DNA of 62,753 nucleotides from an uncultured virus (IMG/VR IMGVR_UViG_3300031758_000014) (taxonomy: Duplodnaviria; Heunggongvirae; Uroviricota; Caudoviricetes): the IMG/VR virus record IMGVR_UViG_3300031758_000014; one strand, 5' to 3'. The position numbers and the translations under genes were made by a program. The notes under the pieces are model-generated. The model did no database searches. It worked only from the letters and a program-made list of their open reading frames with translations, and was not told the origin of the DNA. This document shows, piece by piece, positions 6,074 to 25,663 of the stretch (its first letter is position 1; each line of letters starts with the position of its first letter).

Positions 6074-6169
6074 TTATAATACACTTTTACTGACAATAGG
6101 TAATCTATACCCCGCCTCATAAGCCTCGTAGCCTCTCGCTTCTATTGATATGTTAACTATTGTTCTCAT
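6074..6169 (-). CDS. leader peptide A: MRTIVNISIEARGYEAYEAGYRLPIVSKSVL
   Basis: Manual translation; E/A/G/Y/I-rich core matches downstream tRNAs; TTGTCAGT antiterminator. Confidence 0.85.
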   Translation of the reverse strand: MRTIVNISIEARGYEAYEAGYRLPIVSKSVL

Positions 6170-9961: not shown

Positions 9962-9996
9962 ATAAAAAAACCTCAGATAAATCCGAGGTTTTTTTA
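9962..9996. terminator. intrinsic terminator
   Basis: AAAAAAACCTC..GAGGTTTTTTT hairpin. Confidence 0.75.
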
Positions 9997-13981: not shown

Positions 13982-14389
13982 TTATTCTAAAATAGAACTA
14001 ATTTTTTCATCTCTATTTTCTTCAAGTGGTTTTATTTCATTAAATAAAACAAGACGTAATTTACTATCCGGTAATGGACTCAATGATATATTAACTGTAC
14101 TACCAGAAGATGATGTATAAAATGATGGTGGTGTATTACTATTAATTTCAATCATTTTAAAATATTCATAATTAAAGGGAATAGTATTTGATGATAGAGT
14201 ATCTATCGTATAAAAAGAAAATGTTTTATTCTTATTTGAATACTCTTGTTCCAAGGGAAGTTCATATACAATATGAAATGAAAAGTTAATTATATAAACA
14301 TCTAATAATTTAGAATATGGTTCTACTTGAAATGAATAATAATCTGTATATTCATTAAATGTAACTGATTGGATTTTTATTTTTTTCAT
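13982..14389 (-). CDS. hypothetical protein with C-terminal tag (RDEKISSIL)
   Basis: ORF track; shared motif. Confidence 0.65.
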   Translation of the reverse strand: MKKIKIQSVTFNEYTDYYSFQVEPYSKLLDVYIINFSFHIVYELPLEQEYSNKNKTFSFYTIDTLSSNTIPFNYEYFKMIEINSNTPPSFYTSSSGSTVNISLSPLPDSKLRLVLFNEIKPLEENRDEKISSILE

Positions 14390-14904
14390 AATTTATTTTT
14401 TATCTCATTGATAATAAAACTAATACTTTCTTTAGTAGATGGAACTTCAACAAAATCAATATTATGTTTTAACATAAAATCTTTTATTTCTTTATCCTTT
14501 TCAATAGCCTCTTCTAAAGTTTGCATTCTACCATTTGGATTATAATCTCCTACTCTTGTTAAAAAAAAGTTAAGATTATCAAACTTATTATACTCCGAAA
14601 TAACCAATTCTTTTAAGTATCTAGTTCTATCAGCATCATAAACACAACCCATTGGTATAGGTGAGTCTGTTATAACAACTTGAACTTTACCATCTAAGTT
14701 AAAATGTTTTGAGTATTGTTTACCAAATAAATAGATTTGATTGTTTAGTTTAGTATAAGACTCTTCCCATACAATCTGTTTGGCGTATTCTGAAACCAAT
14801 TCACAATCAATTTTATTCCATTTTAATTCAGCGAATATAGATGCAGCCATTGTACTTTTACCAGTTCCGGGACCAGCCCATAAATTTATATGTATAGTTT
14901 TCAT
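14386..14904 (-). CDS. NadR-like P-loop kinase/ATPase
   Basis: GPGTGKST; EYAK; ITDSP; GRMQT. Confidence 0.8.
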   Translation of the reverse strand: MKTIHINLWAGPGTGKSTMAASIFAELKWNKIDCELVSEYAKQIVWEESYTKLNNQIYLFGKQYSKHFNLDGKVQVVITDSPIPMGCVYDADRTRYLKELVISEYNKFDNLNFFLTRVGDYNPNGRMQTLEEAIEKDKEIKDFMLKHNIDFVEVPSTKESISFIINEIKNKL

Positions 14905-14938
14905 ATAAATTATAAAGCTATTTATTTAAAAAGTTTAG

Positions 14939-15027
14939 TCTAAGTGATGGGACTCGAACCCACATAGAACTTTTACATTCATTCCTGATCCCAAATCAGG
15001 TCGGCGACCAATTGCCTACACACCTAG
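14939..15027 (-). tRNA. tRNA-Pro(TGG) with long variable region
   Basis: CCTGA TT TGG GA TCAGG; about 20-nt variable region. Confidence 0.8.
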
Positions 15028-15090
15028 TTGTTGGAATTATTTTACTCTATTCCCAAAGAGTACCTTTTACCGCCAAACAGTTACTTTGTG

Positions 15091-15162
15091 CGGTCTATGA
15101 GGGAATCGAACCCTCACCATCTGATAGACAGTCAGATATCCTAACCATTGGACCAATAGACC
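15091..15162 (-). tRNA. tRNA-Asp(GTC)
   Basis: TCTGA CT GTC TA TCAGA; G73. Confidence 0.9.
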
Positions 15163-15169
15163 TTATTTG

Positions 15170-15244
15170 TAGGGTAGACCGGACTCGAACCGACACTATG
15201 TCCTCATCCCAAATGAGGCGGCCTACCAATTGGCCAACTACCCT
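15170..15244 (-). tRNA. tRNA-Pro(TGG)
   Basis: CCTCA TT TGG GA TGAGG. Confidence 0.88.
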
Positions 15245-15290
15245 ATAATGTGAATTATTTTTACTCTATTCACAAAGAGATTATATTTTG

Positions 15291-15362
15291 TTGTGAAGAT
15301 AGGACTCGAACCTATATTTTTCATCTTCAAAGGATGATGTCCTGCCATTAGACGACTTCACA
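15291..15362 (-). tRNA. tRNA-Gln(TTG)
   Basis: U1:A72; TCATC CT TTG AA GATGA. Confidence 0.9.
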
Positions 15363-15365
15363 ATT

Positions 15366-16010
15366 TTAATTTAATTCATTTTCATATATTTTTATCCATT
15401 TTCTTATAGCATTATCACTAACACCATATTTTCTACCAGTTGAAGAGTATCCATTTTTTATAATTTCTGCCTTTAAAACTTCATAACTCGGTCTTTCCAC
15501 TTTTCTACGACTTAATCTAACTTTACTTTTCTTTTTTATATCTTTTTTTCTACTAATATTTTTACCACAATGAGTTTCTAGTCCAGCATTACAGTTAGGA
15601 CAAACTATTCTCAAATTTTCTAATCTATTATCATTATATACACCATTTATATGGTCTAAAATTAGAGAGATTTTCATACCATTCCAATTTTCATCCTGAC
15701 CACAAATCTCACATACTCTATTTTTAAGACCATCTTCATATAATCTATTTTTTAAGTGTGTTCTTGAATAGGTTGAATTTTCCACCAAAACTAAGGATAG
15801 ATCAATTTTACTATTTCTCATCTTATTTACCATAACCTCCCATTTCTGAGTGAAGTGAGAAGTGTCAATGTTGTATATTTCTAAATACTTTTTTATTGTC
15901 TTAAAATTACCACCAGCACTTCTTAGTCCAATGTTTTCAAGAGCTTCTTTTAAGCTATTAGATTTTTTTACTATTTCTTCTAATAAATCTTTTTCCCATT
16001 TTATTTTCAT
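15366..16010 (-). CDS. HNH endonuclease with C-terminal HTH
   Basis: CEICG..LDHING..DNRLENLRIVCPNC; GVSDNAIRKW. Confidence 0.85.
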   Translation of the reverse strand: MKIKWEKDLLEEIVKKSNSLKEALENIGLRSAGGNFKTIKKYLEIYNIDTSHFTQKWEVMVNKMRNSKIDLSLVLVENSTYSRTHLKNRLYEDGLKNRVCEICGQDENWNGMKISLILDHINGVYNDNRLENLRIVCPNCNAGLETHCGKNISRKKDIKKKSKVRLSRRKVERPSYEVLKAEIIKNGYSSTGRKYGVSDNAIRKWIKIYENELN

Positions 16011-16086
16011 ATGTATTTTTATTTTTATATATTAAAATCCGAACTTAAAAAAATACTAAAAATTAGGTTCGAGTTGAGTATAAAAT

Positions 16087-16120
16087 AAAAAAACCCAGTT
16101 AATCTTTGACTAACCGGGTT
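16087..16120 (-). terminator. attenuator terminator of tRNA cluster B
   Basis: AACCCGGUUAGUC/GAUUAACUGGGUU hairpin (G:U pairs form only on the minus strand) plus U-run. Confidence 0.88.
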
Positions 16121-16142
16121 CATATCATTTAAAGTTTTTTAT

Positions 16143-16244
16143 TTAACTTTTAGACAATAGAGCGTTAGTCCCAAATACTTTAGGTTGATCCTGATCTTGG
16201 ATTTGCGGGTTAACTACTGCGATATTTACGTTAAAAGTTTTCAT
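16143..16244 (-). CDS. leader peptide B: MKTFNVNIAVVNPQIQDQDQPKVFGTNALLSKS
   Basis: Manual translation; PQIQDQDQP core matches Gln/Pro/Asp/Pro tRNAs; GACTAAC antiterminator. Confidence 0.88.
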   Translation of the reverse strand: MKTFNVNIAVVNPQIQDQDQPKVFGTNALLSKS

Positions 16245-16295
16245 AATAATAATGTATATATAAAGTTTTTATTCTCTCTTTTTAATTTTATGATA

Positions 16296-16327
16296 CAAAG
16301 ATATAAAAGTTTTTAATATCTACCAAA
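16296..16327 (-). promoter_or_regulatory. Bacteroidota-type sigma-A promoter of cluster B
   Basis: TTTG-N20-TAtcTTTG. Confidence 0.8.
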
Positions 16328-17060
16328 TTTTTTTAAAATTATTTTTATTTTTTATTGAATTTTCAAAATCTATAAGATTTGAATCATCATTATATAAGTG
16401 ATCATCATCGTTTATGTTATGCTTATATGTATCTTCATATTTATCAATAAATCTAAGATCGTTTTTAGTTAATTTAATTCCGTGTTCAAAAGCATTGAAA
16501 AAATTAACTAAGTTTTCTATTGATTCATCTGTAAATCCCCAATGTGTATCACCATCATATTTTGATCCTATACCATTATAATGAATAATATTTATTTTAT
16601 TTGGAGTTTCGATTGAAAATTCTGAAATAACTTGATCTCCATATGTTATATCAACTAGTAGTTTTATTCCTCTTGTATTCTTAACAAAATGTATATCAAA
16701 TTCTAATAAGTCTGGCTCACCATTTATAATCTCACCATTTTTTGGCTTCATATTATCTCTATAATAATTAAATTGTACTAAATTATTATCAATTGTACAG
16801 TCATTTTTATCAAAAGTATATTCATTATTTGAATTTAGATCGGAGATTGATAGATTTTTGTTTATTCTTTTTAAATTTTGATGTGATAGAATTGTTAATC
16901 TATCTGGTAATAATTTTTCAAACCAATCTTGTTGAAAAATTGAAATTTTTCCATTTTTATTTATATTATCTCCTTTGTGTGGAAGATTTTTAAATCTAAA
17001 ATCTTTACTATCACCATCAATTTTAACTATATTTTCGTTAAACTTTCTCAAATATTTCAT
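16320..17060 (-). CDS. hypothetical protein with N-terminal MKYLRKFNE motif
   Basis: ORF track; TAATATATA upstream. Confidence 0.7.
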   Translation of the reverse strand: MKYLRKFNENIVKIDGDSKDFRFKNLPHKGDNINKNGKISIFQQDWFEKLLPDRLTILSHQNLKRINKNLSISDLNSNNEYTFDKNDCTIDNNLVQFNYYRDNMKPKNGEIINGEPDLLEFDIHFVKNTRGIKLLVDITYGDQVISEFSIETPNKINIIHYNGIGSKYDGDTHWGFTDESIENLVNFFNAFEHGIKLTKNDLRFIDKYEDTYKHNINDDDHLYNDDSNLIDFENSIKNKNNFKKIW

Positions 17061-17091
17061 ATATTTATATATTAAATATAAAATTCTTTTT

Positions 17092-17700
17092 ATGAATAAA
17101 TTATTATACTACTTTTTATACACTTTTAACTTCTTAAAATATAACTTTATTAAATTGTTATGTTTAATTAGTATCATACTATGTACTTTTTACTTAAAAG
17201 ACTATCAAAGAGCGGATACTATCGAGAAGACTGATATTGTTGCTCAAATGGAAATTGAAGGATATTACATATATACCTATAAAGAGATTAAAGAAAATAA
17301 TGTTGAATTTAATAACTTAACTTATGAAACTCCACAAAAAGTAGTCAATAATCAATTAATTACTAAATCATATAGTGGATATAATATTGCTGTTTGGGTC
17401 TTATTTATATCATCAGTTATAACATTCCTTTTGGTAGGTTTTTTAAATTATTGGTTTGATTTACATGGTGTTTTTGAGAAGACTGCTTTTCGTTTTATAA
17501 AAATGGATTTTGAAGATGGTTTTTATCATTATACACTATTTACTAGATTATTAAAAAAGAGTGATACTAAATTACAAATTAGAGAAGTTAGACATCTACT
17601 ATATAACTATTCTAATTTAAGAGAAACTAAATGGGAGCCAATCTTTATTTCCAAGGAAGAAATGAGAGAAAAAAAGTTAAATACTTTGTTTGATAAATAA
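17092..17700 (+). CDS. membrane protein with C-terminal tag (REKKLNTLF)
   Basis: Two hydrophobic segments; start reassigned to MNKLLY. Confidence 0.65.
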   Translation: MNKLLYYFLYTFNFLKYNFIKLLCLISIILCTFYLKDYQRADTIEKTDIVAQMEIEGYYIYTYKEIKENNVEFNNLTYETPQKVVNNQLITKSYSGYNIAVWVLFISSVITFLLVGFLNYWFDLHGVFEKTAFRFIKMDFEDGFYHYTLFTRLLKKSDTKLQIREVRHLLYNYSNLRETKWEPIFISKEEMREKKLNTLFDK

Positions 17701-17729
17701 TATTTTTTATCTTTATCAAAAATACTCTT

Positions 17730-18242
17730 ATGACACCAAATGTTACTTTAATACCAGATTATATCAACTCGGTTGATTTATTTGATTTTATTATAAACAA
17801 CTGTGACTTTGATAGATCTATGAAGGCACGTTGGACCGCATCATTTGGTAAGTCATATGATTATAACGGAATGAGTTATCGTGCTATTCCTTTCCCAGAC
17901 AATTTTACAAATATATTAAACTTGATTAGTGATACGATTGGATTTTTACCAAATAACTGTTTGATAAATCTTTATCATGATGGTAAGAGTTCAATGGGCT
18001 ATCATTCTGATAATACCGATATACTAACACCTGGAACTGGTGTGGTTATAATCTCATTGGGTAGTGACCGAATATTAAGATTTAAGAACAAGATAGATCC
18101 AACTATAATAGTTGATTATACTTTAACAAATGGTTCTTTATTTTACATGGATGACTTAGTTCAGTCAGATTGGTTACACTCAATTCCGAAGTCTGATACA
18201 ACATCACCTCGTATAAGTTTAACATTCAGAAATATAATATGA
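17730..18242 (+). CDS. AlkB-family 2OG-Fe(II) dioxygenase
   Basis: NCLINLY.DG..SMGYHSD, H.IPK, RISLTFR. Confidence 0.9.
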   Translation: MTPNVTLIPDYINSVDLFDFIINNCDFDRSMKARWTASFGKSYDYNGMSYRAIPFPDNFTNILNLISDTIGFLPNNCLINLYHDGKSSMGYHSDNTDILTPGTGVVIISLGSDRILRFKNKIDPTIIVDYTLTNGSLFYMDDLVQSDWLHSIPKSDTTSPRISLTFRNII

Positions 18243-18466
18243 TACATTGTCATATATGTTATTCTACTGATATTGATGAAGATTTCATATGTGATATGTG
18301 TGATCAATATTATTGTGAAGATTGTTCATACACATTTACATTACATTATCAACACCAAGGAGCAAGATGTTATTGGTGTTCTGATCAAAAGAGAAGAAAA
18401 CCTTTATCACCAGCTGATATAAGAGATAATAAGTTAAAAATAATTTTATGGAAAAATCACAATTAG
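18239..18466 (+). CDS. Cys-rich Zn-finger protein with C-terminal tag (RDNKLKIIL)
   Basis: Four CxxC pairs; shared motif. Confidence 0.7.
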   Translation: MIHCHICYSTDIDEDFICDMCDQYYCEDCSYTFTLHYQHQGARCYWCSDQKRRKPLSPADIRDNKLKIILWKNHN

Positions 18467-18861
18467 ATAATTTACTTAAAATTTACGTTATATTTCATAA
18501 AAACTTTTTCCATCATCCAGATTACATAATGGAAAAGTGGGATGCTATTATTGGAACCAAAGTAGAAAGAAAAATTTTAACAGAGACCTCTACAACTGGT
18601 CAAATTACTTGGTGTAATACTTGGTGTGTAAAATGGGAAGACTATTCTAATATAATTCATTTCTTTACGGTTTTAAGCTCTTATGACCTTGGTGAGATAA
18701 CACCAGGTAAAATTATTGATATATATGATAGTTATATTGGTGATCCACATTTAATAAATAAAACTAATTGGAATGGTATACACCGAGTTTCATTACATTA
18801 TATGGAAGACTATATTAAAAAATATTTAAGAGAATATAATTTAGAATTATGTTTAAGATAG
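18448..18861 (+). CDS. hypothetical protein with C-terminal tag variant (REYNLELCL)
   Basis: ORF track. Confidence 0.65.
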   Translation: MEKSQLDNLLKIYVIFHKNFFHHPDYIMEKWDAIIGTKVERKILTETSTTGQITWCNTWCVKWEDYSNIIHFFTVLSSYDLGEITPGKIIDIYDSYIGDPHLINKTNWNGIHRVSLHYMEDYIKKYLREYNLELCLR

Positions 18862-19079
18862 GAGATAGATTGGAATCAAGTGAATATGATAAAATTCAAA
18901 ATGGTATTGAATATGTCACTATAACAAGTATCAATAAGAAAAATAAAATTTATCATTGGGAAGCAGATGATAAATGGTTTGGTGGTAGAATTGTATCTGG
19001 ATATAGATTTGAAGATTCTAAACTTTATATTTCAAAAGAGGATAGAAGAGATAATAAACTAAATGATTTATTAAACTAA
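18849..19079 (+). CDS. hypothetical SH3-like protein with C-terminal tag (RDNKLNDLL)
   Basis: MFKIGD start; shared motif. Confidence 0.7.
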   Translation: MFKIGDRLESSEYDKIQNGIEYVTITSINKKNKIYHWEADDKWFGGRIVSGYRFEDSKLYISKEDRRDNKLNDLLN

Positions 19080-19081
19080 TT

Positions 19082-19309
19082 ATGTTTGTTATTATGTGTA
19101 AATTTAGAATTGGTGATATAGTTGAAATAGTTGCTATACCAAATAGTGAGTTATATAAAGTTATTAAATTTGATGGTGTTTTCATTGTTTGTAGAAACAT
19201 AAAACACTGTGATAATATAAAATATTCAGAGACATATTTCTTTGAGAGTGAGATTCATCTAAATAAATCCGAAACTAGAGATAATATTATAGATAACTTA
19301 TTAAGTTGA
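19082..19309 (+). CDS. hypothetical SH3-like protein with C-terminal tag (RDNIIDNLL)
   Basis: FRIGDIV; shared motif. Confidence 0.65.
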   Translation: MFVIMCKFRIGDIVEIVAIPNSELYKVIKFDGVFIVCRNIKHCDNIKYSETYFFESEIHLNKSETRDNIIDNLLS

Positions 19310-20006
19310 TTTTATCCATTTTCTGATAGCATTATCAGATACTCCATATCTTCGACCAGTCTCTTTATATCCAAACTCTTTTATTTCTTTTAATAAATCT
19401 TCAACCGATGGTCTATCTACTTTTCTAATTGATGTAGAATGACATTTATTACACATTTTGGATGTTTTTTTTATTTGTTTTCCACAAATACAATATTTAT
19501 TTTTAGATTTTTTATCATATTTTGATTTTCTTAGTTCCGATGAACTGCTCTTTTTTGTGGATTTACAGTATGTACTTGTCTGACTATGACAATTTGGACA
19601 CAATATTCTTAGATTTTCTAATCTATTATCTAAATTATCACCATTTTTATGATCTAAATGTAATGATATTGGTTTATCATTCCAGTTTTCTATACCACAT
19701 TCTTCACATTCATATATCTTTAAACCCTCATCAATTAGTCTTTTTTTAAGTTTATGTGTATTTGTATATGTTGAATTTTCAACTAAAATGTCTTCTATTG
19801 GGTATTTTTTATTAAAAGATCTGAATTTATCACCAGTGTTCCATGCCCTTCCGGTAATGACTTATATCAATATTATAAATATTGAAATATTTTTTTAAAC
19901 TCTTGTAGTTACCACCGATTGGTCTTATTCCAAGTTTTCTACAAACATCCGCTATTGATAGCGATTCAATAACAAATCTTTCTAATAAATCTTTATCATA
20001 CTTCAT
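19301..20006 (-). pseudogene. frameshifted HNH endonuclease (paralogue of 15366..16010)
   Basis: ATG at 20006 reads MKYDKDLLE..GGNYKSLKKY..IDISH; frame shifts near 19855 into TGRAWN..LDHKNG..ENLRILCPNCH..GVSDNAIRKW. Confidence 0.8.
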
Positions 20007-20076
20007 TATTATACATTTTAATTTTTTTTATATATTAAAATGTGTAGTCTTCCTTTACCAATGACTTTTAAGTTCG

Positions 20077-20159
20077 TACTCCTGGAGGGAGTTGAACCCT
20101 CACCCAAATCTATGGACAGCATTTTAAGTGCTGCGTGTCTGCCATTCCACCACAGGAGC
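20077..20159 (-). tRNA. tRNA-Leu(TAA)
   Basis: CAGCA CT TAA AA TGCTG; class II variable arm; A73. Confidence 0.9.
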
Positions 20160-20165
20160 AAATAA

Positions 20166-20269
20166 ATAGAGGAAAGTTTCAAAGAGTGAATGTGGATTTG
20201 AACCACTAAGTTTGATTTTAAGTCAAATTGTAAACCATTTACGAAGTAACTCTTTTGATCACCATCTAT
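20166..20269 (-). ncRNA. tRNA-like RNA (TAA anticodon loop) whose acceptor stem is replaced by the conserved stem module
   Basis: ATAGA TGGTGA TCAAAAGAGT TACTT, then D/anticodon/T hairpins, then ACTCTTTGA AACTTTCC TCTAT. Confidence 0.7.
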
Positions 20270-20273
20270 TTAG

Positions 20274-20346
20274 TTGGGAATGTGGGTTACGATCCCACTA
20301 CCTTTAGTATGTAACACTAACGCTCTCCCGATTGAGCTAATTCCCA
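20274..20346 (-). tRNA. tRNA-Val(TAC), T loop ATCGTAA
   Basis: TTAGT GT TAC AT ACTAA. Confidence 0.85.
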
Positions 20347-20355
20347 GTATTTTAG

Positions 20356-20428
20356 TAGGAGATATGGGTTACGATCCCATTGCCTTCACCATGTCGAAGT
20401 GACGCTCTACCAATTGAGCTAATCTCCT
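20356..20428 (-). tRNA. tRNA-Val(GAC), C33 and T loop ATCGTAA
   Basis: TCACT TC GAC AT GGTGA. Confidence 0.82.
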
Positions 20429-20437
20429 ATTATTTAG

Positions 20438-20507
20438 TACCGCACGTGAGGTTCGAACTCACTTAGTCAACCATATGAGGGTCGACCCTTTTCCACTAAG
20501 CCGCGGC
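20438..20507 (-). tRNA. atypical tRNA with CAT anticodon (Met or Ile2), shortened D arm
   Basis: GTCGACC CT CAT AT GGTTGAC; GTGAG TTCGAAC CTCAC. Confidence 0.6.
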
Positions 20508-20517
20508 ATTTACTTTG

Positions 20518-20591
20518 AGCACCAGGAGGGATTTGAACCCCCGTTAATACGCTTTGCAGGCGTATGCCTAAAACCACTCGACCACTGGTGC
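20518..20591 (-). tRNA. tRNA-Cys(GCA)
   Basis: TACGC CT GCA AA GCGTA; U73. Confidence 0.9.
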
Positions 20592-20596
20592 GTGTC

Positions 20597-21307
20597 TTAT
20601 TTTAACCATTTTCTTATAGTGTTATCAGAAACACCATATTTTCTACCAACCGATGAATATCCTAATTCAGATACCTCATGCTTAAGTTCTTCTATATCTG
20701 GTCTAATATTTTTTCGTTGTAGTAGTTTATAACATATATTACAATTAGTGGATTTTGAATTCATGAAATTACCACAACTACATTTTTTTTTATTTTCTTT
20801 TATTTTTTTCTCTTTCTCTTTTACTTTCTTTTTATTATTTTCACTCTTTGTCTTTTTACCAGAATAATTATCTGTTTTAGAATGACAATTTGGACATAAT
20901 ATCATTAGATTACTTAGATTATTATTAAATCTATCACCATCTATATGATGTAACTCAATTGGTATCTTCTCACCTAACCACTCACTTAAATTACAACTCT
21001 CACATATGTGATTTTTTATCCCGTCTTCTATTAACTTATTCTTTAATTTATGACTTGATAAATAAATATTATTATTTATATAATAAAGAGCTTCTTTTCT
21101 ACTATTTGATATTTTATACCCTTTAGCCCCTTGATTACCAAAATATTCAATACCCATTATATCTAAGTATGAATTAAGTGTGGAGTATCTACAATTTAAT
21201 ATTTTACATATTTCTATTTTTGGTTTATTTTCACTAACCATACTAATTATCAAATCTCTTTTCTCTAATATATCATGTCTCATTTTTTTTAATTCTTTTT
21301 TATACAC
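20597..21307 (-). CDS. HNH endonuclease with C-terminal HTH
   Basis: CESC..ELHHIDGD..NN...LCPNCHS; GVSDNTIRKW. Confidence 0.85.
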   Translation of the reverse strand: MYKKELKKMRHDILEKRDLIISMVSENKPKIEICKILNCRYSTLNSYLDIMGIEYFGNQGAKGYKISNSRKEALYYINNNIYLSSHKLKNKLIEDGIKNHICESCNLSEWLGEKIPIELHHIDGDRFNNNLSNLMILCPNCHSKTDNYSGKKTKSENNKKKVKEKEKKIKENKKKCSCGNFMNSKSTNCNICYKLLQRKNIRPDIEELKHEVSELGYSSVGRKYGVSDNTIRKWLK

Positions 21308-21335
21308 TATATATAAAAAAGTAATGTGTCTGTTG

Positions 21336-21426
21336 TATCAGTGGTCGGACTCGAACCGACAATGTTTTCCACGTGGGTATTAGTTCCTAAGACTAACGCG
21401 TTTCAACCAAATTTCGCCACACTGAC
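21336..21426 (-). tRNA. tRNA-Leu(TAG)
   Basis: TTAGT CT TAG GA ACTAA; long variable arm. Confidence 0.9.
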
Positions 21427-21432
21427 ATATCG

Positions 21433-21504
21433 AGCTGATGGAGGGACTTGAACCCCCATTTCATCTTTACAAGAGACGAGTAATGACCGTTATACGACAT
21501 CAGC
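21433..21504 (-). tRNA. tRNA-Thr(TGT)
   Basis: CGTCT CT TGT AA AGATG; GCTGATG acceptor. Confidence 0.88.
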
Positions 21505-21510
21505 ATTTAG

Positions 21511-21583
21511 TAGTTGATGCGGGTTACGATCCCACTACCTCCGACGTATCAGATCGGCGCTCTACCAATTGAGCTAATCAACT
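21511..21583 (-). tRNA. tRNA-Ile(GAT), T loop ATCGTAA
   Basis: CCGAT CT GAT AC GTCGG. Confidence 0.88.
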
Positions 21584-21589
21584 ATTTAG

Positions 21590-21662
21590 TAGTCCTACCG
21601 GGATTCGAACCCAGACGAAACGCTTAGAAGGCGCTTATGCTATCCAGTTACATCATAGAACC
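21590..21662 (-). tRNA. tRNA-Arg(TCT)
   Basis: AGCGC CT TCT AA GCGTT. Confidence 0.88.
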
Positions 21663-21670
21663 ATTTTTTG

Positions 21671-21755
21671 TCGGTAGGGTGGGATTTGAACCCACGTTAT
21701 ACTTTCGTATCCAGTGTATCAGACTGGTCCCTGAAAACCGCTCGGGTACCTACCG
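21671..21755 (-). tRNA. tRNA-Ile(GAT) with long variable arm
   Basis: CCAGT CT GAT AC ACTGG; ATAC GAAA GTAT variable hairpin. Confidence 0.8.
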
Positions 21756-22315
21756 TTTAATCTATCTAATCTTTTTTGTTCTTCTAAATTGAAATGTATT
21801 TCACCATGACAATTTCTACAAACTAAAATACATTTATCAACTTCACTTTTTAATTTCTCAAAAGAGTTTGTTTTTCCACTAATTGTAAAGTCTTTCTCTT
21901 CGGGGTTTAAATGGTGGAATTCTAATGATGTTATACATTTGTTATAACCACATATTTCACAATTATTACCTTTATACTCTACTAATTTTATTTTAACTCT
22001 TCTTCTCCATTCTATTACATTTCTCGAATTTCTATTATCTTCTCTTAATTTATCTGATTTATTTTTATATCTTTTAATTGTACTTATAGATAAGTTAAAT
22101 TTATCAGAAGCCTCTTTTATACTATGATTTTCACAATATTTTTTTATTTCATTTATATCCAAATCATTTACTTTTTTAAGTTTACCAATATCATTCATTC
22201 CATATCTCTTACAATGATATCCAATTGTCGATTTAGATATTTTTAGTTCTTTACTTATTTCATCATAACTTTTACCTTCATTTCTTAATTCAATTATTTT
22301 ATCTTTTGTTTTCAT
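21719..22315 (-). CDS. HTH-HNH endonuclease (paralogue of 4070..4621)
   Basis: CEICGYNKC..LEFHH..CILVCRNCHGEIH; 3' end overlaps tRNA-Ile. Confidence 0.85.
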   Translation of the reverse strand: MKTKDKIIELRNEGKSYDEISKELKISKSTIGYHCKRYGMNDIGKLKKVNDLDINEIKKYCENHSIKEASDKFNLSISTIKRYKNKSDKLREDNRNSRNVIEWRRRVKIKLVEYKGNNCEICGYNKCITSLEFHHLNPEEKDFTISGKTNSFEKLKSEVDKCILVCRNCHGEIHFNLEEQKRLDRLNGRYPSGFQGPV

Positions 22316-22383
22316 AATCTCTAATATATTTTACTTATATATTAAAACTTATGAGCTTTCTTTAACCATTTTGGTTAAGTTAG

Positions 22384-22457
22384 CGGATTTGATAGGACTC
22401 GAACCTACTATCTTCTGCTTAACAGGCAGTAGCTTATACCACTTAAGCTTCAAATCC
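22384..22457 (-). tRNA. tRNA-Asn(GTT)
   Basis: CTGC CT GTT AA GCAG; G73. Confidence 0.85.
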
Positions 22458-22469
22458 TTTATATTTTTG

Positions 22470-22557
22470 AGGGCCCGGTAGGATTCGAACCTACTTTATT
22501 TCAATTTTTCATACAGTGATTAACAGTCACCAGCTAAAACCATTAAGCTACTGACCC
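22470..22557 (-). tRNA. tRNA-Asn(GTT) with long variable region
   Basis: GGTGA CT GTT AA TCACT; about 20-nt A-rich variable region. Confidence 0.72.
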
Positions 22558-22568
22558 GTATGTAAAAT

Positions 22569-22602
22569 AAAAAACCCTCAGATTTTTTGTCTGAGGGTTT
22601 TT
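22569..22602 (-). terminator. attenuator terminator of tRNA cluster C
   Basis: AAAAACCCTCAGA/TCTGAGGGTTTTT hairpin. Confidence 0.88.
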
Positions 22603-22625
22603 CAAGTTTTTTATTCTATAAAAAT

Positions 22626-22742
22626 TTATAGAGTAGTTAAGTCATGAAAACCCTCACTATGTCTAATACATAACGTATTTAACACCATCACTGTATTCAG
22701 TGTGTTATTTACATTAATCATATTTAAGTTAATAGTTCTCAT
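22626..22742 (-). CDS. leader peptide C: MRTINLNMINVNNTLNTVMVLNTLCIRHSEGFHDLTTL
   Basis: Manual translation; first 27 residues use only N/L/M/I/V/T/C/R, matching the cluster; TGAGGGTTTT antiterminator. Confidence 0.85.
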   Translation of the reverse strand: MRTINLNMINVNNTLNTVMVLNTLCIRHSEGFHDLTTL

Positions 22743-22788
22743 TGTTTTTATATTTTAATTGTTTTTATTCTGTTTTAATTTTACTTTA

Positions 22789-22922
22789 CAAAGATACAAA
22801 AGTTTTTTAAATATCCAAAAAGTTTTTTTAATTTTTTATTATATATTAAAAAACTTTTCTCCCTTTTGTGTTTTTGTTATATTTATACTACAAATTTAGT
22901 AAAAAGTTTTAAATATACCAAA
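22789..22922 (-). promoter_or_regulatory. tandem Bacteroidota-type promoters of cluster C
   Basis: TTTG-N19-TAtcTTTG (22789-22819) and TTTG-N20-TAaaTTTG (22891-22922), with a TAATATATA motif between. Confidence 0.78.
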
Positions 22923-22925
22923 TTT

Positions 22926-23327
22926 TTATAATATTTTTTTCCAAAATCTTTCTGGAAGATGTATGTTCTCAATATTTACACACTCATTAAATAGTGGTGC
23001 AACATCTTTTGGTTTTAATCCAGCTAAACCACATCCTACTTCAGTTACTAAAAATATCAAATTCTGATTGTTTTTAGCAAATTCAATAAAATCATCAACA
23101 AATGGTTTTATCTCAACTATTGAAAGTGTTCTTCTAATAGAAGCGTCTTTGGTTGGTATTCCATAAGTTCTACCTTGTAAACCAGCGGCTTGACCCCATT
23201 TAGCTCCCCAGGTAAGAGCTTGTTTAGCTGCTCCTTTTCCGTGTCTACCAGATAAATTAGAACCAAAAACAAATATTTCATTTGTGTTTAGTTTTGTGAT
23301 GTTATCTGATGTTACTCTATTTTCCAT
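22926..23327 (-). CDS. macrodomain-like phage protein (A1S_2505-type)
   Basis: IFVFGSNL.G.HG.GAA; YGIPTK; VTEVGCGLAG. Confidence 0.75.
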   Translation of the reverse strand: MENRVTSDNITKLNTNEIFVFGSNLSGRHGKGAAKQALTWGAKWGQAAGLQGRTYGIPTKDASIRRTLSIVEIKPFVDDFIEFAKNNQNLIFLVTEVGCGLAGLKPKDVAPLFNECVNIENIHLPERFWKKIL

Positions 23328-23356
23328 ACGTGTTATATTAAAAATGAATAATAAGT

Positions 23357-23653
23357 TTATCTACCTCTTTTTCTATTGTGTGTTGTTGTACTATCATAGA
23401 AGTCAGGTTCTTTTTTAGAAACCCATTTTATGAATTTTTCCATCTCTGGATGTTCTTTAACCAACTCAGCATTATTATAATTCTTTTCTAATTCTTTTTC
23501 TGTAAATAATGAATGTATTTTTCGGTGACATATTTTATGTAACCATTCAGTTTCTTTACCACCTCTACATTTGGGAAGGAAATGGTGACGATCAACAAAT
23601 TGATTTTCCCACATTTCTCTATCACAAATAGGACAAATGCCAATTACTTTCAT
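23357..23653 (-). CDS. small HNH endonuclease
   Basis: MKVIGICPICD..HHFLPK..H.ICH.KIH; upstream part of the track ORF is tRNA-Ser. Confidence 0.8.
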   Translation of the reverse strand: MKVIGICPICDREMWENQFVDRHHFLPKCRGGKETEWLHKICHRKIHSLFTEKELEKNYNNAELVKEHPEMEKFIKWVSKKEPDFYDSTTTHNRKRGR

Positions 23654-23656
23654 AAG

Positions 23657-23743
23657 AGGAAGAAGTGGGAGTCGAACCCAGCCCGAGTTAACGAGCCCTT
23701 GTTTTCCAAACAAGTGAGAGGACCACCTCTTCTCGCATCTTCC
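23657..23743 (-). tRNA. tRNA-Ser(GGA)
   Basis: CTTGT TT GGA AA ACAAG; long variable arm. Confidence 0.8.
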
Positions 23744-23745
23744 GT

Positions 23746-23832
23746 TGGCGGAGAGCAGAGTATTCGAAACCCACACGTTGTCGTGCCACTCGCTTAGCAG
23801 GCGGTGCTGAGGACCTCCTCAGTTTACTCTCC
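23746..23832 (-). tRNA. tRNA-Ser(GCT)
   Basis: CT GCT AA loop; long variable arm; GCCA end. Confidence 0.82.
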
Positions 23833-23840
23833 ATTTATTT

Positions 23841-23927
23841 TGGCGGAAGAGTGAGGTATCGATCCCCATACCTTTCGGTACCACTAGTTTTCAAGACTAG
23901 GTCAAGCGCCAGCTTAATTACTCTTCC
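23841..23927 (-). tRNA. tRNA-Ser(TGA)
   Basis: CTAGT CT TGA AA ACTAG; long variable arm; GCCA end. Confidence 0.85.
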
Positions 23928-23935
23928 ATATGTTG

Positions 23936-24021
23936 CGGAAAGAGAGGGATTCGAACCCTCGGATCTTGTTTCAGATCTACGGTTTTCAAGACCGCTCCAC
24001 TCAACCAACGTTACCCTTTCC
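23936..24021 (-). tRNA. tRNA-Ser(TGA)
   Basis: GCGGT CT TGA AA ACCGT; long variable arm. Confidence 0.85.
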
Positions 24022-24029
24022 AATTTTTG

Positions 24030-24101
24030 TAGTCATAGAGGGAATTGAACCCCCACCTGATCGTTCGTAGCGACCTGTCCTATCCGTTAGACGATATGAC
24101 T
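24030..24101 (-). tRNA. tRNA-Arg(ACG)
   Basis: GGTCG CT ACG AA CGATC. Confidence 0.88.
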
Positions 24102-24105
24102 AAAT

Positions 24106-24138
24106 AAAAAAACCCTCAGATTATTAATCCGAGGGTTT
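24106..24138 (-). terminator. attenuator terminator of tRNA cluster D
   Basis: AAACCCUCGGAUUA/UAAUCUGAGGGUUU hairpin plus U-run. Confidence 0.88.
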
Positions 24139-24163
24139 ATTATATAATATTATTATTACCTAA

Positions 24164-24238
24164 TTATAAACACAATCGGATTACATGTCCACTACTCGAG
24201 CGACTTGACGAAACTAATATGTTTAAAATTGTTCTCAT
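24164..24238 (-). CDS. leader peptide D: MRTILNILVSSSRSSSGHVIRLCL
   Basis: Manual translation; SSSRSSS matches Arg(ACG) plus four Ser tRNAs; TAATCCGA antiterminator. Confidence 0.9.
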   Translation of the reverse strand: MRTILNILVSSSRSSSGHVIRLCL

Positions 24239-24296
24239 AATATTTTTTATTTCTTTGTTTATATATTACAAATGTAATACTTCCTTTTTAATTTTC

Positions 24297-24509
24297 CTAA
24301 TTTATTATTTCTTTTATTTCTTCTATTGTAAAAAGTTTACCTTTATTATCATTTTCACATTTAGTATAACCTTCAATAAATGCTTCAATTATATTTTTAT
24401 CGGTTATTCCTTTTTCTTCTGCCCATTTTTGAGCTTTCTTTTCAATCTTAGAAGGTTTTCTTCTATGATATGGTGTTAAGTCAGTATAGTTATCACTTCT
24501 TTCTGGCAT
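24297..24509 (-). CDS. hypothetical protein
   Basis: ORF track. Confidence 0.55.
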   Translation of the reverse strand: MPERSDNYTDLTPYHRRKPSKIEKKAQKWAEEKGITDKNIIEAFIEGYTKCENDNKGKLFTIEEIKEIIN

Positions 24510-24526
24510 ATTTGTTTTTTATTTTT

Positions 24527-24657
24527 TGGTAGGGAGATGGGACTCGAACCCATGACCACGCGGTTAACAGCCGAAGTAACTCTTCTAATCAACACTCTTT
24601 CGAGGTAAAGTTATAGAAAAGTAAAGTACGTGCTCTACCAACTGAGCTACTCCCTAC
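24527..24657 (-). tRNA. tRNA-Asn(GTT) interrupted by a 55-nt structured insertion between positions 28 and 29
   Basis: Removing 24574-24628 restores CGCGG CT GTT AA CCGCG; the insert is the conserved module closed by CTC-GAAA-GAG. Confidence 0.8.
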
Positions 24658-24674
24658 ATATATATTTTAATTTG

Positions 24675-24746
24675 TTGCCCCGGTGGGGATTGAACCCACG
24701 ATCCCCTGATTAAGAGTCAGGTGCTTTACCACTCAGCTACAAGGCA
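24675..24746 (-). tRNA. tRNA-Lys(CTT)
   Basis: CCTGA CT CTT AA TCAGG. Confidence 0.88.
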
Positions 24747-24752
24747 ATTTAG

Positions 24753-24825
24753 TGGAGCCGACGGGTTACGATCCCGTTCCTCTGGTTTTTCAGACCAGCG
24801 CAATGACCACATCTGCCACAGCTCC
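24753..24825 (-). tRNA. tRNA-Phe(GAA)
   Basis: CTGGT CT GAA AA ACCAG; identical to 25243-25315. Confidence 0.88.
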
Positions 24826-24835
24826 TTATATTTTG

Positions 24836-24909
24836 GGTGAATAACGGGCTACGATCCCGCGACCTCTGGATTCACAATCCAGCGCTCTTACCAACTGAGC
24901 TATATTCAC
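24836..24909 (-). tRNA. tRNA-His(GTG)
   Basis: CTGGA TT GTG AA TCCAG; C73. Confidence 0.88.
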
Positions 24910-24911
24910 AG

Positions 24912-24984
24912 TGACCCCGGTGGGTTACGATCCCACTCTCCCCATATTAAAAGTATGGTGCTTTCCCGATTAAGCTACGAAGTC
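24912..24984 (-). tRNA. tRNA-Lys(TTT)
   Basis: CCATA CT TTT AA TATGG; T loop ATCGTAA. Confidence 0.86.
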
Positions 24985-24994
24985 ATATTTTTAG

Positions 24995-25065
24995 CACGGG
25001 TACCAAGATTCGAACTCGGAACAACGGTTTTGGAGACCGGCATGATACCATTTCACTATACCCGT
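24995..25065 (-). tRNA. tRNA-Trp(CCA)
   Basis: CGGT CT CCA AA ACCG; G73. Confidence 0.88.
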
Positions 25066-25074
25066 GTATGTTAG

Positions 25075-25147
25075 CGCGTCACCAAGGACTCGAACCCTGA
25101 CCCTTCGGGTTGGAACCGAAGATGCTAAGCCATTACACCAATGACGC
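25075..25147 (-). tRNA. tRNA-Trp(CCA)
   Basis: TTCGG TT CCA AC CCGAA; G73. Confidence 0.85.
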
Positions 25148-25158
25148 TTGTATTTTAG

Positions 25159-25232: not shown

Positions 25233-25242
25233 ATATTTTTAG

Positions 25243-25315: not shown

Positions 25316-25323
25316 TTATTTTG

Positions 25324-25543: not shown

Positions 25544-25663
25544 TTATAAAGTCGTTAAGTCTTCAAAAAATAAACACAATACTTTTCCAGTACCAAGTTC
25601 TGATTTATTGCTAAACCATTTGCTTGATTTACTAAAATGTTTATGTTTATTAATTGTTCTCAT
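25544..25663 (-). CDS. leader peptide E: MRTINKHKHFSKSSKWFSNKSELGTGKVLCLFFEDLTTL
   Basis: Manual translation; K/H/F/W/N core matches the cluster; GAACTTGG antiterminator. Confidence 0.88.
   Translation of the reverse strand: MRTINKHKHFSKSSKWFSNKSELGTGKVLCLFFEDLTTL

What the first reader, a model, noticed from the sequence alone, without database searches (positions are those of the whole stretch)
16087..16327. Attenuator B: PQIQDQDQP leader for Gln/Pro/Asp/Pro tRNAs
Leader 16244-16143 has CCG CAA ATC CAA GAT CAG GAT CAA CCT. The downstream tRNAs are exactly Gln(TTG), Pro(TGG), Asp(GTC) and Pro(TGG). GACTAAC (16170-16164) complements terminator GTTAGTC (16114-16108). An HNH gene has inserted between the terminator and the first tRNA.
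Basis: partly seen in the sequence, partly recalled or inferred. Interest (0 to 1): 0.88.

Follow-up and report, generated by a model that had tools for sequence, protein, structure and literature searches.

The report
Leader-peptide attenuator gating phage tRNAs
A tiny sensor mini-gene spelled in glutamine, aspartate and proline codons, followed by a switchable transcription stop, sits ahead of a giant phage's glutamine, proline and aspartate tRNA genes, so the phage probably makes these tRNAs mainly when ribosomes read those codons slowly.

Summary
Confirmed. At 16327-16084 (minus strand) a Bacteroidetes-type promoter, a 33-codon ORF whose codons 13-21 hold 4 Gln, 2 Asp and 2 Pro codons, and a strong intrinsic terminator precede, after an inserted HNH gene, tRNA-Gln, Pro, Asp, Pro. 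It is one of five such modules in the window; each leader is enriched in the amino acids of its own tRNA array (the true pairing is the single best of 120), and 32 of 33 tRNAs lie behind one. The design recurs in three related huge-phage records: 22 modules, 237 of 626 leader residues cognate against 105 +/- 17 in 100,000 within-genome permutations, none as high. Orthologues of this module keep the ORF, the Gln/Asp/Pro codons and the antiterminator pairing, and lack the HNH gene. In one relative the same chassis, with Asn and Arg codons, precedes an asparaginyl-tRNA synthetase gene. Best reading: ribosome-mediated (leader-peptide) attenuation that raises tRNA transcription when those codons are decoded slowly. 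Weak points: this copy's 7-bp antiterminator alone is not above chance, and there are no expression data. Ten literature searches found no description of this control for tRNA genes. This scan has noted the same design before on other DNA (AI notes, mostly unchecked).

The parts
16324..16327 (-). -33 promoter element (TTTG) of a Bacteroidetes sigma-A type promoter
   Evidence: regex TTTG-N17-21-TANNTTTG hit starting at 16327; consensus from passages of PMC6847099; invariant in 3 orthologues
16296..16303 (-). -7 promoter element (TANNTTTG); predicted start of transcription about 16291 (inferred from G at -5)
   Evidence: position rule from PMC6847099 passages
16245..16291 (-). predicted 5' UTR, A at -3 before the start codon; holds a purine-rich/AT element shared with the sister modules
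   Evidence: function of the shared element unknown
16143..16244 (-). leader ORF, 33 codons plus stop
   Evidence: kept as an ORF of 31-33 codons in 9 orthologues
16182..16208 (-). regulatory codon run, codons 13-21: 4 Gln, 2 Asp, 2 Pro, 1 Ile
   Evidence: 7 of the 8 cognate codons decodable by the array's anticodons under strict wobble
16164..16170 (-). region 2: antiterminator 5' strand, inside the ORF (codons 25-27), 11 nt after the last cognate codon, 18 nt before the stop codon
   Evidence: pairs in 70 of 70 cells of the 10-sequence alignment
16108..16114 (-). region 3: antiterminator 3' strand = 3' part of terminator 5' arm and loop
16091..16121 (-). intrinsic terminator hairpin, 14 pairs, loop 3
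16084..16090 (-). T tract of the terminator
15366..16010 (-). HNH homing-endonuclease-like gene (214 aa) inserted between terminator and first tRNA
   Evidence: Pfam HNH 21.7 bits, cut-off 21.4; absent from orthologous loci
15290..15362 (-). tRNA-Gln(ttg)
15169..15244 (-). tRNA-Pro(tgg)
15090..15162 (-). tRNA-Asp(gtc)
14938..15027 (-). tRNA-Pro(tgg), 90 nt with an insert; ARAGORN only
   Evidence: no Rfam hit at gathering score
25497..25743 (-). sister module: promoter, 39-codon leader (6 Lys, 2 His, 4 Phe, 1 Trp), terminator; then 10 tRNAs Lys/His/Phe/Trp
24110..24238 (-). sister module: 24-codon leader (6 Ser, 3 Arg), terminator; then tRNA-Arg(acg), Ser(tga), Ser(tga)
22571..22922 (-). sister module: two promoters, 38-codon leader (28 of 37 residues from Asn, Ile, Arg, Thr, Leu, Cys, Val), terminator; then 11 tRNAs of exactly those seven amino acids
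6020..6234 (-). sister module: promoter, 31-codon leader (3 Tyr, 2 Gly, 3 Ala, 3 Glu), terminator; then tRNAs Tyr, Gly, Ala, Gly, Ala

Best explanation
This is a multivalent leader-peptide (ribosome-mediated) transcription attenuator that gates a phage tRNA unit. Host RNA polymerase starts at the Bacteroidetes-type promoter (about 16291) and ribosomes translate the 33-codon leader. If Gln-, Asp- or Pro-tRNA is short, the ribosome stalls in codons 13-21, leaving the segment 16170..16164 free to pair with the 5' arm of the terminator as it emerges; the terminator cannot form and transcription runs on through the inserted HNH gene into tRNA-Gln, Pro, Asp, Pro. If those codons are read quickly, the ribosome moves over that segment, the terminator hairpin forms and transcription stops at 16090-16084. 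The product (tRNAs that read the leader's own codons) relieves the stall, giving negative feedback on tRNA supply. Shown: the parts, their order, the codon-to-tRNA match here and in 21 other modules, conservation of ORF, codons and pairing. Inferred: translation of the leader, the direction of the switch, and the feedback.
For: Parts and order. Codon run is unique in the window. Five modules in the window, each leader richest in its own array's amino acids relative to set size; true pairing is the single best of 120 (66 cognate residues; mean 32.2; next best 56). 32 of 33 window tRNAs lie behind a module; 119 of 134 over all loci examined. Automated scan of the window and 16 loci of three relatives: 22 modules, 237 of 626 residues cognate, permutations 104.8 +/- 16.8, maximum 196, 0 of 100,000 as high; exact per record: 2 of 40,320 (LR745206) and 1 of 5,040 (LR756504). 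Every one of the 20 amino acids is more frequent in leaders followed by its tRNA than in the others. Codon level: 204 of 237 cognate residues use codons readable by the array's anticodons under strict wobble; Arg codons fall in the box of the array's Arg anticodon in 11 of 14 cases (CGC/CGA before Arg-acg, AGA before Arg-tct). Antiterminator: leader-to-5'-arm duplex beats all but 5.6% or fewer of 500 shuffles in 20 of 22 modules, mean z -2.9; in 5 of 5 window modules it forms in folds truncated before the 3' arm. Geometry: cognate residues are 199 of 402 before region 2 and 38 of 224 from region 2 to the stop; stop codon lies 17-33 nt before the terminator arm in 22 of 22. Orthologues: 8 of 12 metagenome hits and 2 phage records keep a 31-33-codon ORF with Gln/Asp/Pro codons; region 2 pairs in 70 of 70 cells, its two variable positions changing A-U to G-U only, while flanking codons differ between subgroups. 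Terminator lies 8-22 nt from the first tRNA in modules without an inserted gene, leaving no room for a promoter. Gln codons in the Asp/Pro leader track the Gln tRNAs: 3-4 where tRNA-Gln is in the unit (window, L029, L030), 1 where the Gln tRNAs lie 1.85 kb away behind their own Gln-rich leader. In LR745206 the same promoter-leader-terminator chassis with 3 Asn and 2 Arg codons precedes asparagine-tRNA ligase (NF003037 414.1 bits, cut-off 414; TIGR00457 394.5, cut-off 342.6) and an ArgRS-like gene.
Against: No expression, ribosome or 3'-end data. This copy's 7-bp antiterminator is the weakest of the 22 real-looking modules (28% of shuffles as good). No pair shows changes on both sides; the 3' strand was fixed by how orthologues were found. 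At equilibrium the terminator always wins, so the switch must be kinetic. Region 2 ends 18 nt before the stop codon, so a ribosome resting on the stop would not cover it. One Pro codon (CCT) is not read by anticodon tgg under strict wobble. In sister modules 7 of 20 Ser codons (AGT) have no matching anticodon in the array, and leader L014:5107 has 3 of 4 Arg codons outside its own sub-array's box. Leader L002:21722 matches its cut array in only 3 of 34 residues; one automated module (L010:6027, 1 of 33) looks spurious. 15 of 134 tRNAs are not behind a detected module. The 729-nt HNH insertion could carry a promoter of a type my regex does not see.
Confidence: 0.8

Rival explanations
1. The module family is real, but this copy is a decaying relic: after the HNH gene inserted, the weak antiterminator no longer switches, and the four tRNAs are expressed by leaky read-through or from an unrecognised promoter inside the insertion.
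For: Weakest antiterminator of the family; 729 nt between terminator and first tRNA against 8-22 nt elsewhere; nearest orthologues L029 and L030 can extend the pairing to 8-9 pairs by my reading, the window copy cannot.
Against: ORF, codon run, promoter and terminator are all intact and as conserved as in orthologues; no Bacteroidetes-type promoter match between 16090 and 15362 on the minus strand; -10.0 kcal/mol is in the range I recall for the E. coli trp 2:3 helix (recalled, not tested).
Confidence: 0.1
2. Leader translation is sensed, but the output is not intrinsic termination: stalling changes processing or stability of the precursor, or Rho access, and the hairpin mainly protects the short mRNA's 3' end.
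For: No data on 3' ends; hairpin sits right at the tRNA 5' processing site in most modules.
Against: Hairpins have the full intrinsic-terminator form with T tracts, and the leader segment complementary to the 5' arm has no role in this reading.
Confidence: 0.06
3. The RNA senses tRNA directly, T-box style, by codon-anticodon pairing without translation.
For: Terminator/antiterminator logic and tRNA-matched triplets are shared with T-boxes.
Against: No T-box or other leader family reaches Rfam's gathering score in the window (34 hits, all tRNA models); the triplets are many, in one frame, inside an ATG-to-stop ORF kept in every orthologue with in-frame length changes; substitutions inside the Pro codons of the run are third-position.
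Confidence: 0.02
4. An ordinary small gene with its own terminator that happens to lie before tRNAs; the codon match is chance.
For: The 7-nt complement alone is not significant.
Against:: the match is unique in the window and recurs in 21 other modules; peptide C-terminal parts are not conserved between subgroups while the RNA pairing segment is.
Confidence: 0.02

Closest known systems
Leader-peptide transcription attenuators of amino-acid biosynthetic operons (E. coli/Salmonella trp, his, leu, pheA; recalled from textbook knowledge)
   Same: Promoter-proximal short ORF with a run of codons for the sensed amino acid, a segment that can pair either upstream or with the terminator's 5' arm, an intrinsic terminator before the regulated genes.
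   Different: The regulated genes are tRNAs that read the leader's own codons, not enzymes; the element is in a phage, behind a Bacteroidetes-type promoter; no convincing 1:2 (anti-antiterminator) helix in this copy; no Rfam leader family matches.
Multivalent attenuators (thr operon: Thr and Ile codons; ilvGMEDA: Ile, Leu, Val codons; recalled)
   Same: One leader samples several amino acids at once.
   Different: Here the mix (Gln, Asp, Pro; elsewhere up to seven amino acids) equals the set of tRNA genes downstream and changes with it between relatives.
Attenuation of an aminoacyl-tRNA synthetase operon by a leader peptide (E. coli pheST with its Phe-rich leader; recalled)
   Same: A component of the decoding machinery is controlled by how fast its own codons are read; in LR745206 the same chassis with Asn and Arg codons precedes AsnRS.
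   Different: In the window the product is the tRNA itself.
T-box riboswitches (Rfam RF00230)
   Same: Sense tRNA status and choose between antiterminator and terminator.
   Different: T-boxes bind uncharged tRNA directly through one specifier triplet and a conserved T-box sequence and need no translation; none detected here.

Membership tests
Leader-peptide (ribosome-mediated) transcription attenuator | Short ORF with start and stop close behind a promoter | tested here: met
   ORF 16244..16143, 47 nt behind the predicted start of a TTTG/TANNTTTG promoter; ORF kept in 9 orthologues
Leader-peptide (ribosome-mediated) transcription attenuator | Cluster of codons cognate to what the regulated genes supply | tested here: met
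   8 of 9 codons 13-21 are Gln/Asp/Pro; unique among 340 ORFs; family-wide match 0 of 100,000 permutations
Leader-peptide (ribosome-mediated) transcription attenuator | Intrinsic terminator between leader ORF and regulated genes | tested here: met
   14-pair hairpin plus T tract, 16121..16084
Leader-peptide (ribosome-mediated) transcription attenuator | Alternative antiterminator helix that uses the terminator's 5' arm and is placed just downstream of the regulatory codons | tested here: inconclusive
   Present (7 pairs), conserved (70 of 70 cells), correctly placed, significant in 20 of 22 family members but not in this copy alone (0.282)
Leader-peptide (ribosome-mediated) transcription attenuator | Termination changes with translation of the leader | not testable with these tools
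   No RNA run holder listed; uncultured phage
Leader-peptide (ribosome-mediated) transcription attenuator | Regulated genes are amino-acid biosynthesis or aaRS genes (all described cases I know; recalled) | tested here: not met
   Regulated genes are four tRNAs and an HNH gene; this is the point of novelty
T-box riboswitch | Stem I with specifier loop and conserved T-box sequence (Rfam RF00230) | tested here: not met
   No hit at gathering score in the window; lower thresholds not tried
Rfam amino-acid leader families (His, Thr, Leu, Trp, Phe leaders and the like) | Match to the curated covariance model | tested here: not met
   34 hits in the window, all tRNA models

The most novel reading that the evidence does not exclude
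Huge Bacteroidetes phages run their tRNA genes on demand: every array (and at least one synthetase operon) sits behind its own multi-codon sensor ORF and switchable terminator, so the phage measures, codon set by codon set, how fast infected-cell ribosomes decode and tops up exactly the tRNAs that are limiting, whether through codon-usage mismatch with the host, host shut-off, or host tRNA-cleaving defences. The leaders then act as labels of array content: the Glu codons of the leader at 6169 point to an otherwise unrecognised, apparently circularly permuted tRNA-Glu gene in its array.
Probability: 0.6. Interest if true: 0.9.

Novelty: new variant of a known kind. Interest (0 to 1): 0.85.

Why it matters
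Why phages carry tRNA genes has been argued for decades (codon compensation versus escape from host tRNA-targeting defences; the eLife 2023 paper PMC10264068 was seen only as a search listing and abstract start). A sensor that reads the very codons the downstream tRNAs decode says that the phage treats tRNA supply as a regulated quantity and gives a direct experimental handle: the leader tells which codons the phage expects to become limiting. It extends classical attenuation from metabolic genes to the decoding machinery itself, closes a one-step feedback loop (tRNA product relieves its own inducer), offers compact, orthogonal, codon-specific switches for Bacteroidetes engineering, and gives annotators a way to predict the content of tRNA arrays, including tRNAs that gene finders miss.

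Tried and rejected
Whole genome: none held. Earlier notes by place and by sequence: nothing. Expression: no RNA holder listed for 15950-25900; read laying was therefore not used. Relatives by protein: the 614-aa neighbour gene found only three contigs of the same phage. Viral-contig scan with the terminator pattern: 3 loci, 2 of them the same phage. Covariation count on the orthologue alignment is uninformative because the 3' strand was fixed by the search pattern. A rigid pattern for the shared 5'-UTR element gave 2 matches against 0.44 expected, 5 of 100 shuffles as many: not pursued. Of 23 terminator-like hairpins my script lists in the window, 15 have a small ORF by my rule; 5 are the modules; of the other 10 I examined one (9993..9966), whose small ORF is an out-of-frame piece inside a 154-aa gene; the other 9 were not examined, and none lies within 1500 nt upstream of a same-strand tRNA. 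Equilibrium folding cannot show the switch. Metagenome hits L024 and L031 (no leader of this type, no T tract or no tRNA) and L028 and L034 (same hairpin behind a different small ORF, no tRNA within 1.5 kb) were left out of the orthologue alignment; L025 was left out as its leader equals that of L021. The Lys module of LR756504 at L002 (-)20004 (5 Lys of 20 codons, then three tRNA-Lys) was seen by eye but its weak hairpin failed my terminator rule, so it is in no statistic. Structure and complex prediction were not relevant and not used.

Full report
THE OBSERVATION. The window is AT-rich (28.3% G+C) and carries 33 ARAGORN tRNA genes, all on the minus strand. At the reported place there is an ATG-to-stop ORF of 33 codons, 16244..16143. 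Its codons 13-21 (16208..16182) are four Gln, two Asp and two Pro codons with one Ile codon between them. Twenty-one nucleotides after the stop codon begins a hairpin of 14 pairs (5 G-C, loop 3) followed by a T run, 16121..16084; the region 14000-26500 holds 16 such terminator-like sites against 4.1 +/- 2.4 in shuffles. The seven bases 16170..16164 are the exact complement of 16114..16108. The next genes on this strand are an ORF of 214 aa, 16010..15366, which reaches Pfam's HNH cut-off narrowly (21.7 against 21.4 bits), and then tRNA-Gln(ttg), Pro(tgg), Asp(gtc), Pro(tgg). The codon run is far beyond chance: Gln, Pro and Asp together make 12.8% of the residues of the window's 39 long ORFs, which gives 5.9e-7 for 8 or more of 9; among 340 ATG-ORFs of 20 aa or more in all six frames this ORF alone reaches 8 of 9, the next best being 6. 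The 7-base complement is not beyond chance by itself: 28% of 500 dinucleotide shuffles of the leader pair as well with the terminator's 5' arm.

IT IS ONE OF FIVE. The same module stands four more times on the same strand. ORF 25663..25544 (39 codons: 6 Lys, 2 His, 4 Phe, 1 Trp) and its terminator are followed after 14 nt by ten tRNAs for Lys, His, Phe and Trp. ORF 24238..24164 (24 codons: 6 Ser, 3 Arg) is followed after 9 nt by tRNA-Arg(acg) and Ser(tga), and by a second Ser(tga) that only Rfam's selenocysteine model and ARAGORN at a lowered threshold pick up. ORF 22742..22626 (38 codons) draws 28 of its 37 residues after the initiator from Asn, Ile, Arg, Thr, Leu, Cys and Val, and is followed by eleven tRNAs of exactly those seven amino acids, in three blocks split by two HNH-type genes. 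ORF 6169..6074 (31 codons: 3 Tyr, 2 Gly, 3 Ala, 3 Glu) is followed by tRNAs Tyr, Gly, Ala, Gly, Ala, again with endonuclease-like genes in between. Four of the five modules have a full match to the Bacteroidetes promoter TTTG-N17-21-TANNTTTG just upstream, and such matches are otherwise rare: 7 on the minus strand of the whole window, 6 of them at these modules; the consensus and the rule that its G lies at -5 are from passages of PMC6847099. All five leaders have A at -3 before the start codon, a positive determinant of initiation in Flavobacterium according to the abstract of the same paper. Thirty-two of the 33 tRNAs lie behind one of the five modules.

STATISTICS. I wrote one rule (a perfect hairpin of 6-14 pairs with 3 or more G-C and a T tract, at most 1500 nt upstream of a same-strand tRNA; the longest ATG-ORF of 10-70 codons ending from 90 nt before to 10 nt after the hairpin's start) and applied it to the window and to 16 loci of three related records. 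It returned 22 modules. Counting leader residues whose amino acid has a tRNA in the module's own array (arrays cut at the next module) gives 237 of 626; permuting arrays among leaders within each record gives 104.8 +/- 16.8, maximum 196, and none of 100,000 permutations reaches 237. Exact tests per record: window 1 of 120 (the true pairing is the single best), LR745206 2 of 40,320, LR756504 1 of 5,040; dropping the first five residues, which are alike in all leaders, changes nothing. Each of the 20 amino acids is more frequent in leaders followed by its tRNA than in the others, for example Gln 24.2% against 2.2%, Pro 9.6% against 1.1%, Asp 7.8% against 1.4%. At codon level 204 of the 237 cognate residues use a codon that an anticodon of the array reads under strict wobble; for this module 7 of 8. 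The rare codons CGC and CGA appear in the two leaders that precede tRNA-Arg(acg) and AGA in those that precede Arg(tct): 11 of 14 Arg codons fall in the right box. Ser is worse, 13 of 20, because AGT codons occur before arrays that hold only Ser(tga).

RELATIVES. The nearest annotated-collection matches are two uncultured phage records of 634,780 and 636,363 bases, LR745206 and LR756504. Passages of PMC7162821 say that the genomes of more than 634 kb in that study belong to the Mahaphage clade and are predicted to replicate in Bacteroidetes; that text holds the stem 'attenuat' nowhere. That these two records are among those genomes I infer from their lengths only. A third relative is a 108.5-kb IMG/VR contig (G002). 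In LR745206 the orthologue of this module (L001, ORF from 20374, 31 codons: 4 Pro, 3 Gln, 2 Asp) has a nearly identical terminator, 20 nt before tRNA-Pro, then four Asp, one unassigned, one Pro; a second module follows (16 codons, 7 of them Gln) and three tRNA-Gln. In G002 the orthologue (3 Pro, 3 Asp, 1 Gln) precedes tRNA-Asp and Pro by 8 nt, and the two tRNA-Gln lie 1.85 kb further on behind their own leader (19 codons, 6 Gln). A scan of metagenome contigs with the terminator as pattern gave 12 loci, 8 with a leader of this type; 7 of these 8 have Asp, Pro or Gln tRNAs in the flank held and the eighth contig ends about 90 nt after the hairpin. The two closest leaders (L029, L030; 3 and 4 Gln codons) have tRNA-Gln 10 and 19 nt after the matched pattern, then Pro and Asp. 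So the HNH gene is an insertion peculiar to the window's phage, and the number of Gln codons in the leader follows the place of the Gln tRNAs. Other leaders in the relatives match their arrays as closely: for instance one with 11 of 18 residues Ile, Met or Arg before tRNAs Arg, Ile, Met; one with 19 of 33 residues from Ala, Glu, Gly, Ile, Val before Glu, Ala, Ile, Val, Gly, Glu; one with 14 of 28 from Leu, Ser, Cys before Leu, Leu, Ser, Cys, Ser, Ser, Leu, Leu.

THE SWITCH. In folds of each of the five window modules truncated just before the 3' arm of the terminator, the 5' arm pairs with a segment in the 3' part of the leader ORF. Across the 22 modules this leader-to-arm duplex is at or below the 5.6th percentile of 500 dinucleotide shuffles in 20; the exceptions are this module (0.282) and the module that looks spurious (0.206); mean z is -2.9. 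Because each module has its own terminator sequence and its own matching segment, this is covariation between paralogues. Within the orthologues of this module the helix pairs in 70 of 70 cells; two of its seven pairs vary, only between A-U and G-U; there is no double change, and there could hardly be one since the 3' strand was part of the search pattern. The codons flanking the segment differ between the three orthologue subgroups while its core stays, which fits an RNA constraint better than a peptide one. The geometry is uniform: cognate residues make up 199 of 402 positions upstream of the pairing segment and 38 of 224 from it to the stop; the last cognate codon ends 0-15 nt before the segment (11 nt here); the stop codon lies 17-33 nt before the terminator arm in all 22, though my rule allowed -10 to 90. 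In modules without an inserted gene the hairpin ends 6-22 nt before the first ARAGORN-called tRNA, or 86-283 nt where gaps may hold tRNAs the finder missed, so there is no room for a promoter after it: the tRNAs can be made only by reading through the hairpin.

AN INTERNAL CONTROL. In LR745206 a further copy of the chassis (Bacteroidetes-type promoter, 16-codon ORF with 3 Asn and 2 Arg codons, terminator whose 5' arm is complementary to the end of the ORF) stands not before tRNAs but before two 392-aa genes. The first is asparagine-tRNA ligase (NCBIfam NF003037 414.1 bits, cut-off 414; TIGR00457 394.5, cut-off 342.6; Pfam tRNA-synt_2 1.1e-61); the second is ArgRS-like, weakly (Pfam tRNA-synt_1d 26.4 bits, cut-off 23.3; TIGR00456 39.1, far below its cut-off). 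Leader-peptide control of a synthetase gene is the classical logic (E. coli pheST, recalled), so the family includes a member of the known kind, which strengthens the reading of the others.

MECHANISM. Most likely (0.8): ribosome-mediated attenuation. Shown: parts, order, codon match, conservation. Inferred: that the ORF is translated, that a ribosome stalled in codons 13-21 leaves 16170..16164 free to capture the terminator's 5' arm, that a ribosome moving on prevents this so that the hairpin forms, and that the tRNAs made relieve the stall. The direction follows from the placement of the pairing segment inside the ORF and downstream of the cognate codons. The weak half of the model is termination under fast translation: a ribosome resting on the stop codon would not cover the segment, which ends 18 nt upstream, so this rests on kinetics (the ribosome between the two strands, the local hairpin folding first). 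What is sensed is charged tRNA at the A site, so amino-acid shortage, synthetase shortage and tRNA shortage cannot be told apart from sequence.

KNOWN OR NEW. The mechanism is that of the trp, his, leu, thr and ilv leaders; multivalent leaders are known (thr, ilv; recalled). What I could not find is this control applied to tRNA genes. Ten full-text searches with terms combining leader peptide, attenuation or attenuator, antiterminator, tRNA genes, operon, array or cluster, phage, jumbo or huge phage returned nothing that describes it, judging by titles and abstract starts; I opened only PMC7162821 and PMC6847099, by passages. Papers outside that library were not searched, and supplements were not looked at. 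Rfam has no matching family in the window. This scan's own notes list the same design in other genomes, phage and Patescibacteria; these are AI notes on other DNA, I did not examine those genomes, and they are not independent support. I rate it a new variant of a known kind.

CAVEATS. See evidence against: no expression data; this copy's antiterminator is weak; some codons are unmatched; one automated module is probably false and one leader (L002:21722) matches the arrays of the next units better than its own single tRNA; modules in different records are orthologous, so the pooled count is not 22 independent events, which is why I give the per-record exact tests; no unrelated tRNA-rich phage was run through the scan as a negative control.

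Noticed in passing
window 3505-3613 (-): Apparent circularly permuted tRNA-Glu(ttc): anticodon arm, T arm and 3' acceptor strand lie upstream of the 5' acceptor strand and D arm, with 7 of 7 acceptor pairs between the halves and a flanking helix. Joining the halves by coordinates in a script gave 251 junction combinations with an ARAGORN call, many of them full-length tRNA-Glu(ttc). It sits in the array whose leader (6169) has three Glu codons, and no other tRNA-Glu was found in the window. Could also be a dead remnant of a tandem pair.
   Followed up: partly
L001 34179-36740 (-) (LR745206): Same promoter-leader-terminator chassis, leader with 3 Asn and 2 Arg codons, precedes asparagine-tRNA ligase and an ArgRS-like gene rather than tRNAs.
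   Followed up: yes
window 24529-24656 (-): 128-nt tRNA (Rfam 43.6 bits) missed by default ARAGORN; with intron search ARAGORN calls anticodon tta (would read the stop codon TAA) with a 57-nt intron. The call is uncertain; I could not draw a convincing anticodon stem by eye.
   Followed up: partly
window 6254-6328 (-): The only tRNA not behind a leader module is tRNA-Met(cat); by my reading of the sequence its positions 1 and 72 do not pair (C opposite T), an initiator-like trait; an initiator could not be sensed by elongation stalling. It is preceded directly by the AT-rich element that the leader modules carry between promoter and start codon (one search hit 6338-6360), which may be a second promoter.
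   Followed up: partly
window 15366-16010, 20597-21307, 21719-22315, 4070-4621, 5255-5881 (-): Homing-endonuclease-like genes are scattered through the tRNA units: HNH or HNH_3 hits at or near cut-off with C-terminal or N-terminal HTH, a NUMOD3 protein with sub-threshold GIY-YIG hits; fragments 19301-20006 look like a broken copy by similarity of their ends to the others (not tested).
   Followed up: partly
window 14938-15027, 22469-22557, 21335-21426, 3996-4084 (-): Several tRNAs are 88-92 nt long with inserts although not of the long-variable-arm classes (Pro, Asn, Gly); the Pro at 14938 is not found by Rfam at gathering score.
   Followed up: no
window 5940-6010 (-) and 4678-4758 (-): Two more tRNA-like genes: one right after the terminator of the 6169 module with a GTA anticodon-like loop (Tyr), called by neither program; one found by Rfam only (39.5 bits).
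   Followed up: partly
L002 19890-20004 (-) (LR756504): Lys module with four consecutive Lys codons; here a 15-bp helix between the ORF's 3' part and the terminator's 5' arm competes with a weak 7-bp terminator, the reverse balance of strengths from the window's modules (by eye).
   Followed up: no
L002 21190-21270 (-) and gaps of 86-283 nt after terminators in L010, L017, L019: Gaps between terminator and first called tRNA may hold unrecognised tRNAs; the one in L002 looks like tRNA-Pro(tgg) by eye and its leader has one Pro codon.
   Followed up: no
L028 and L034 (metagenome contigs): The same terminator sequence follows a different small ORF, with no tRNA within 1.5 kb downstream.
   Followed up: no
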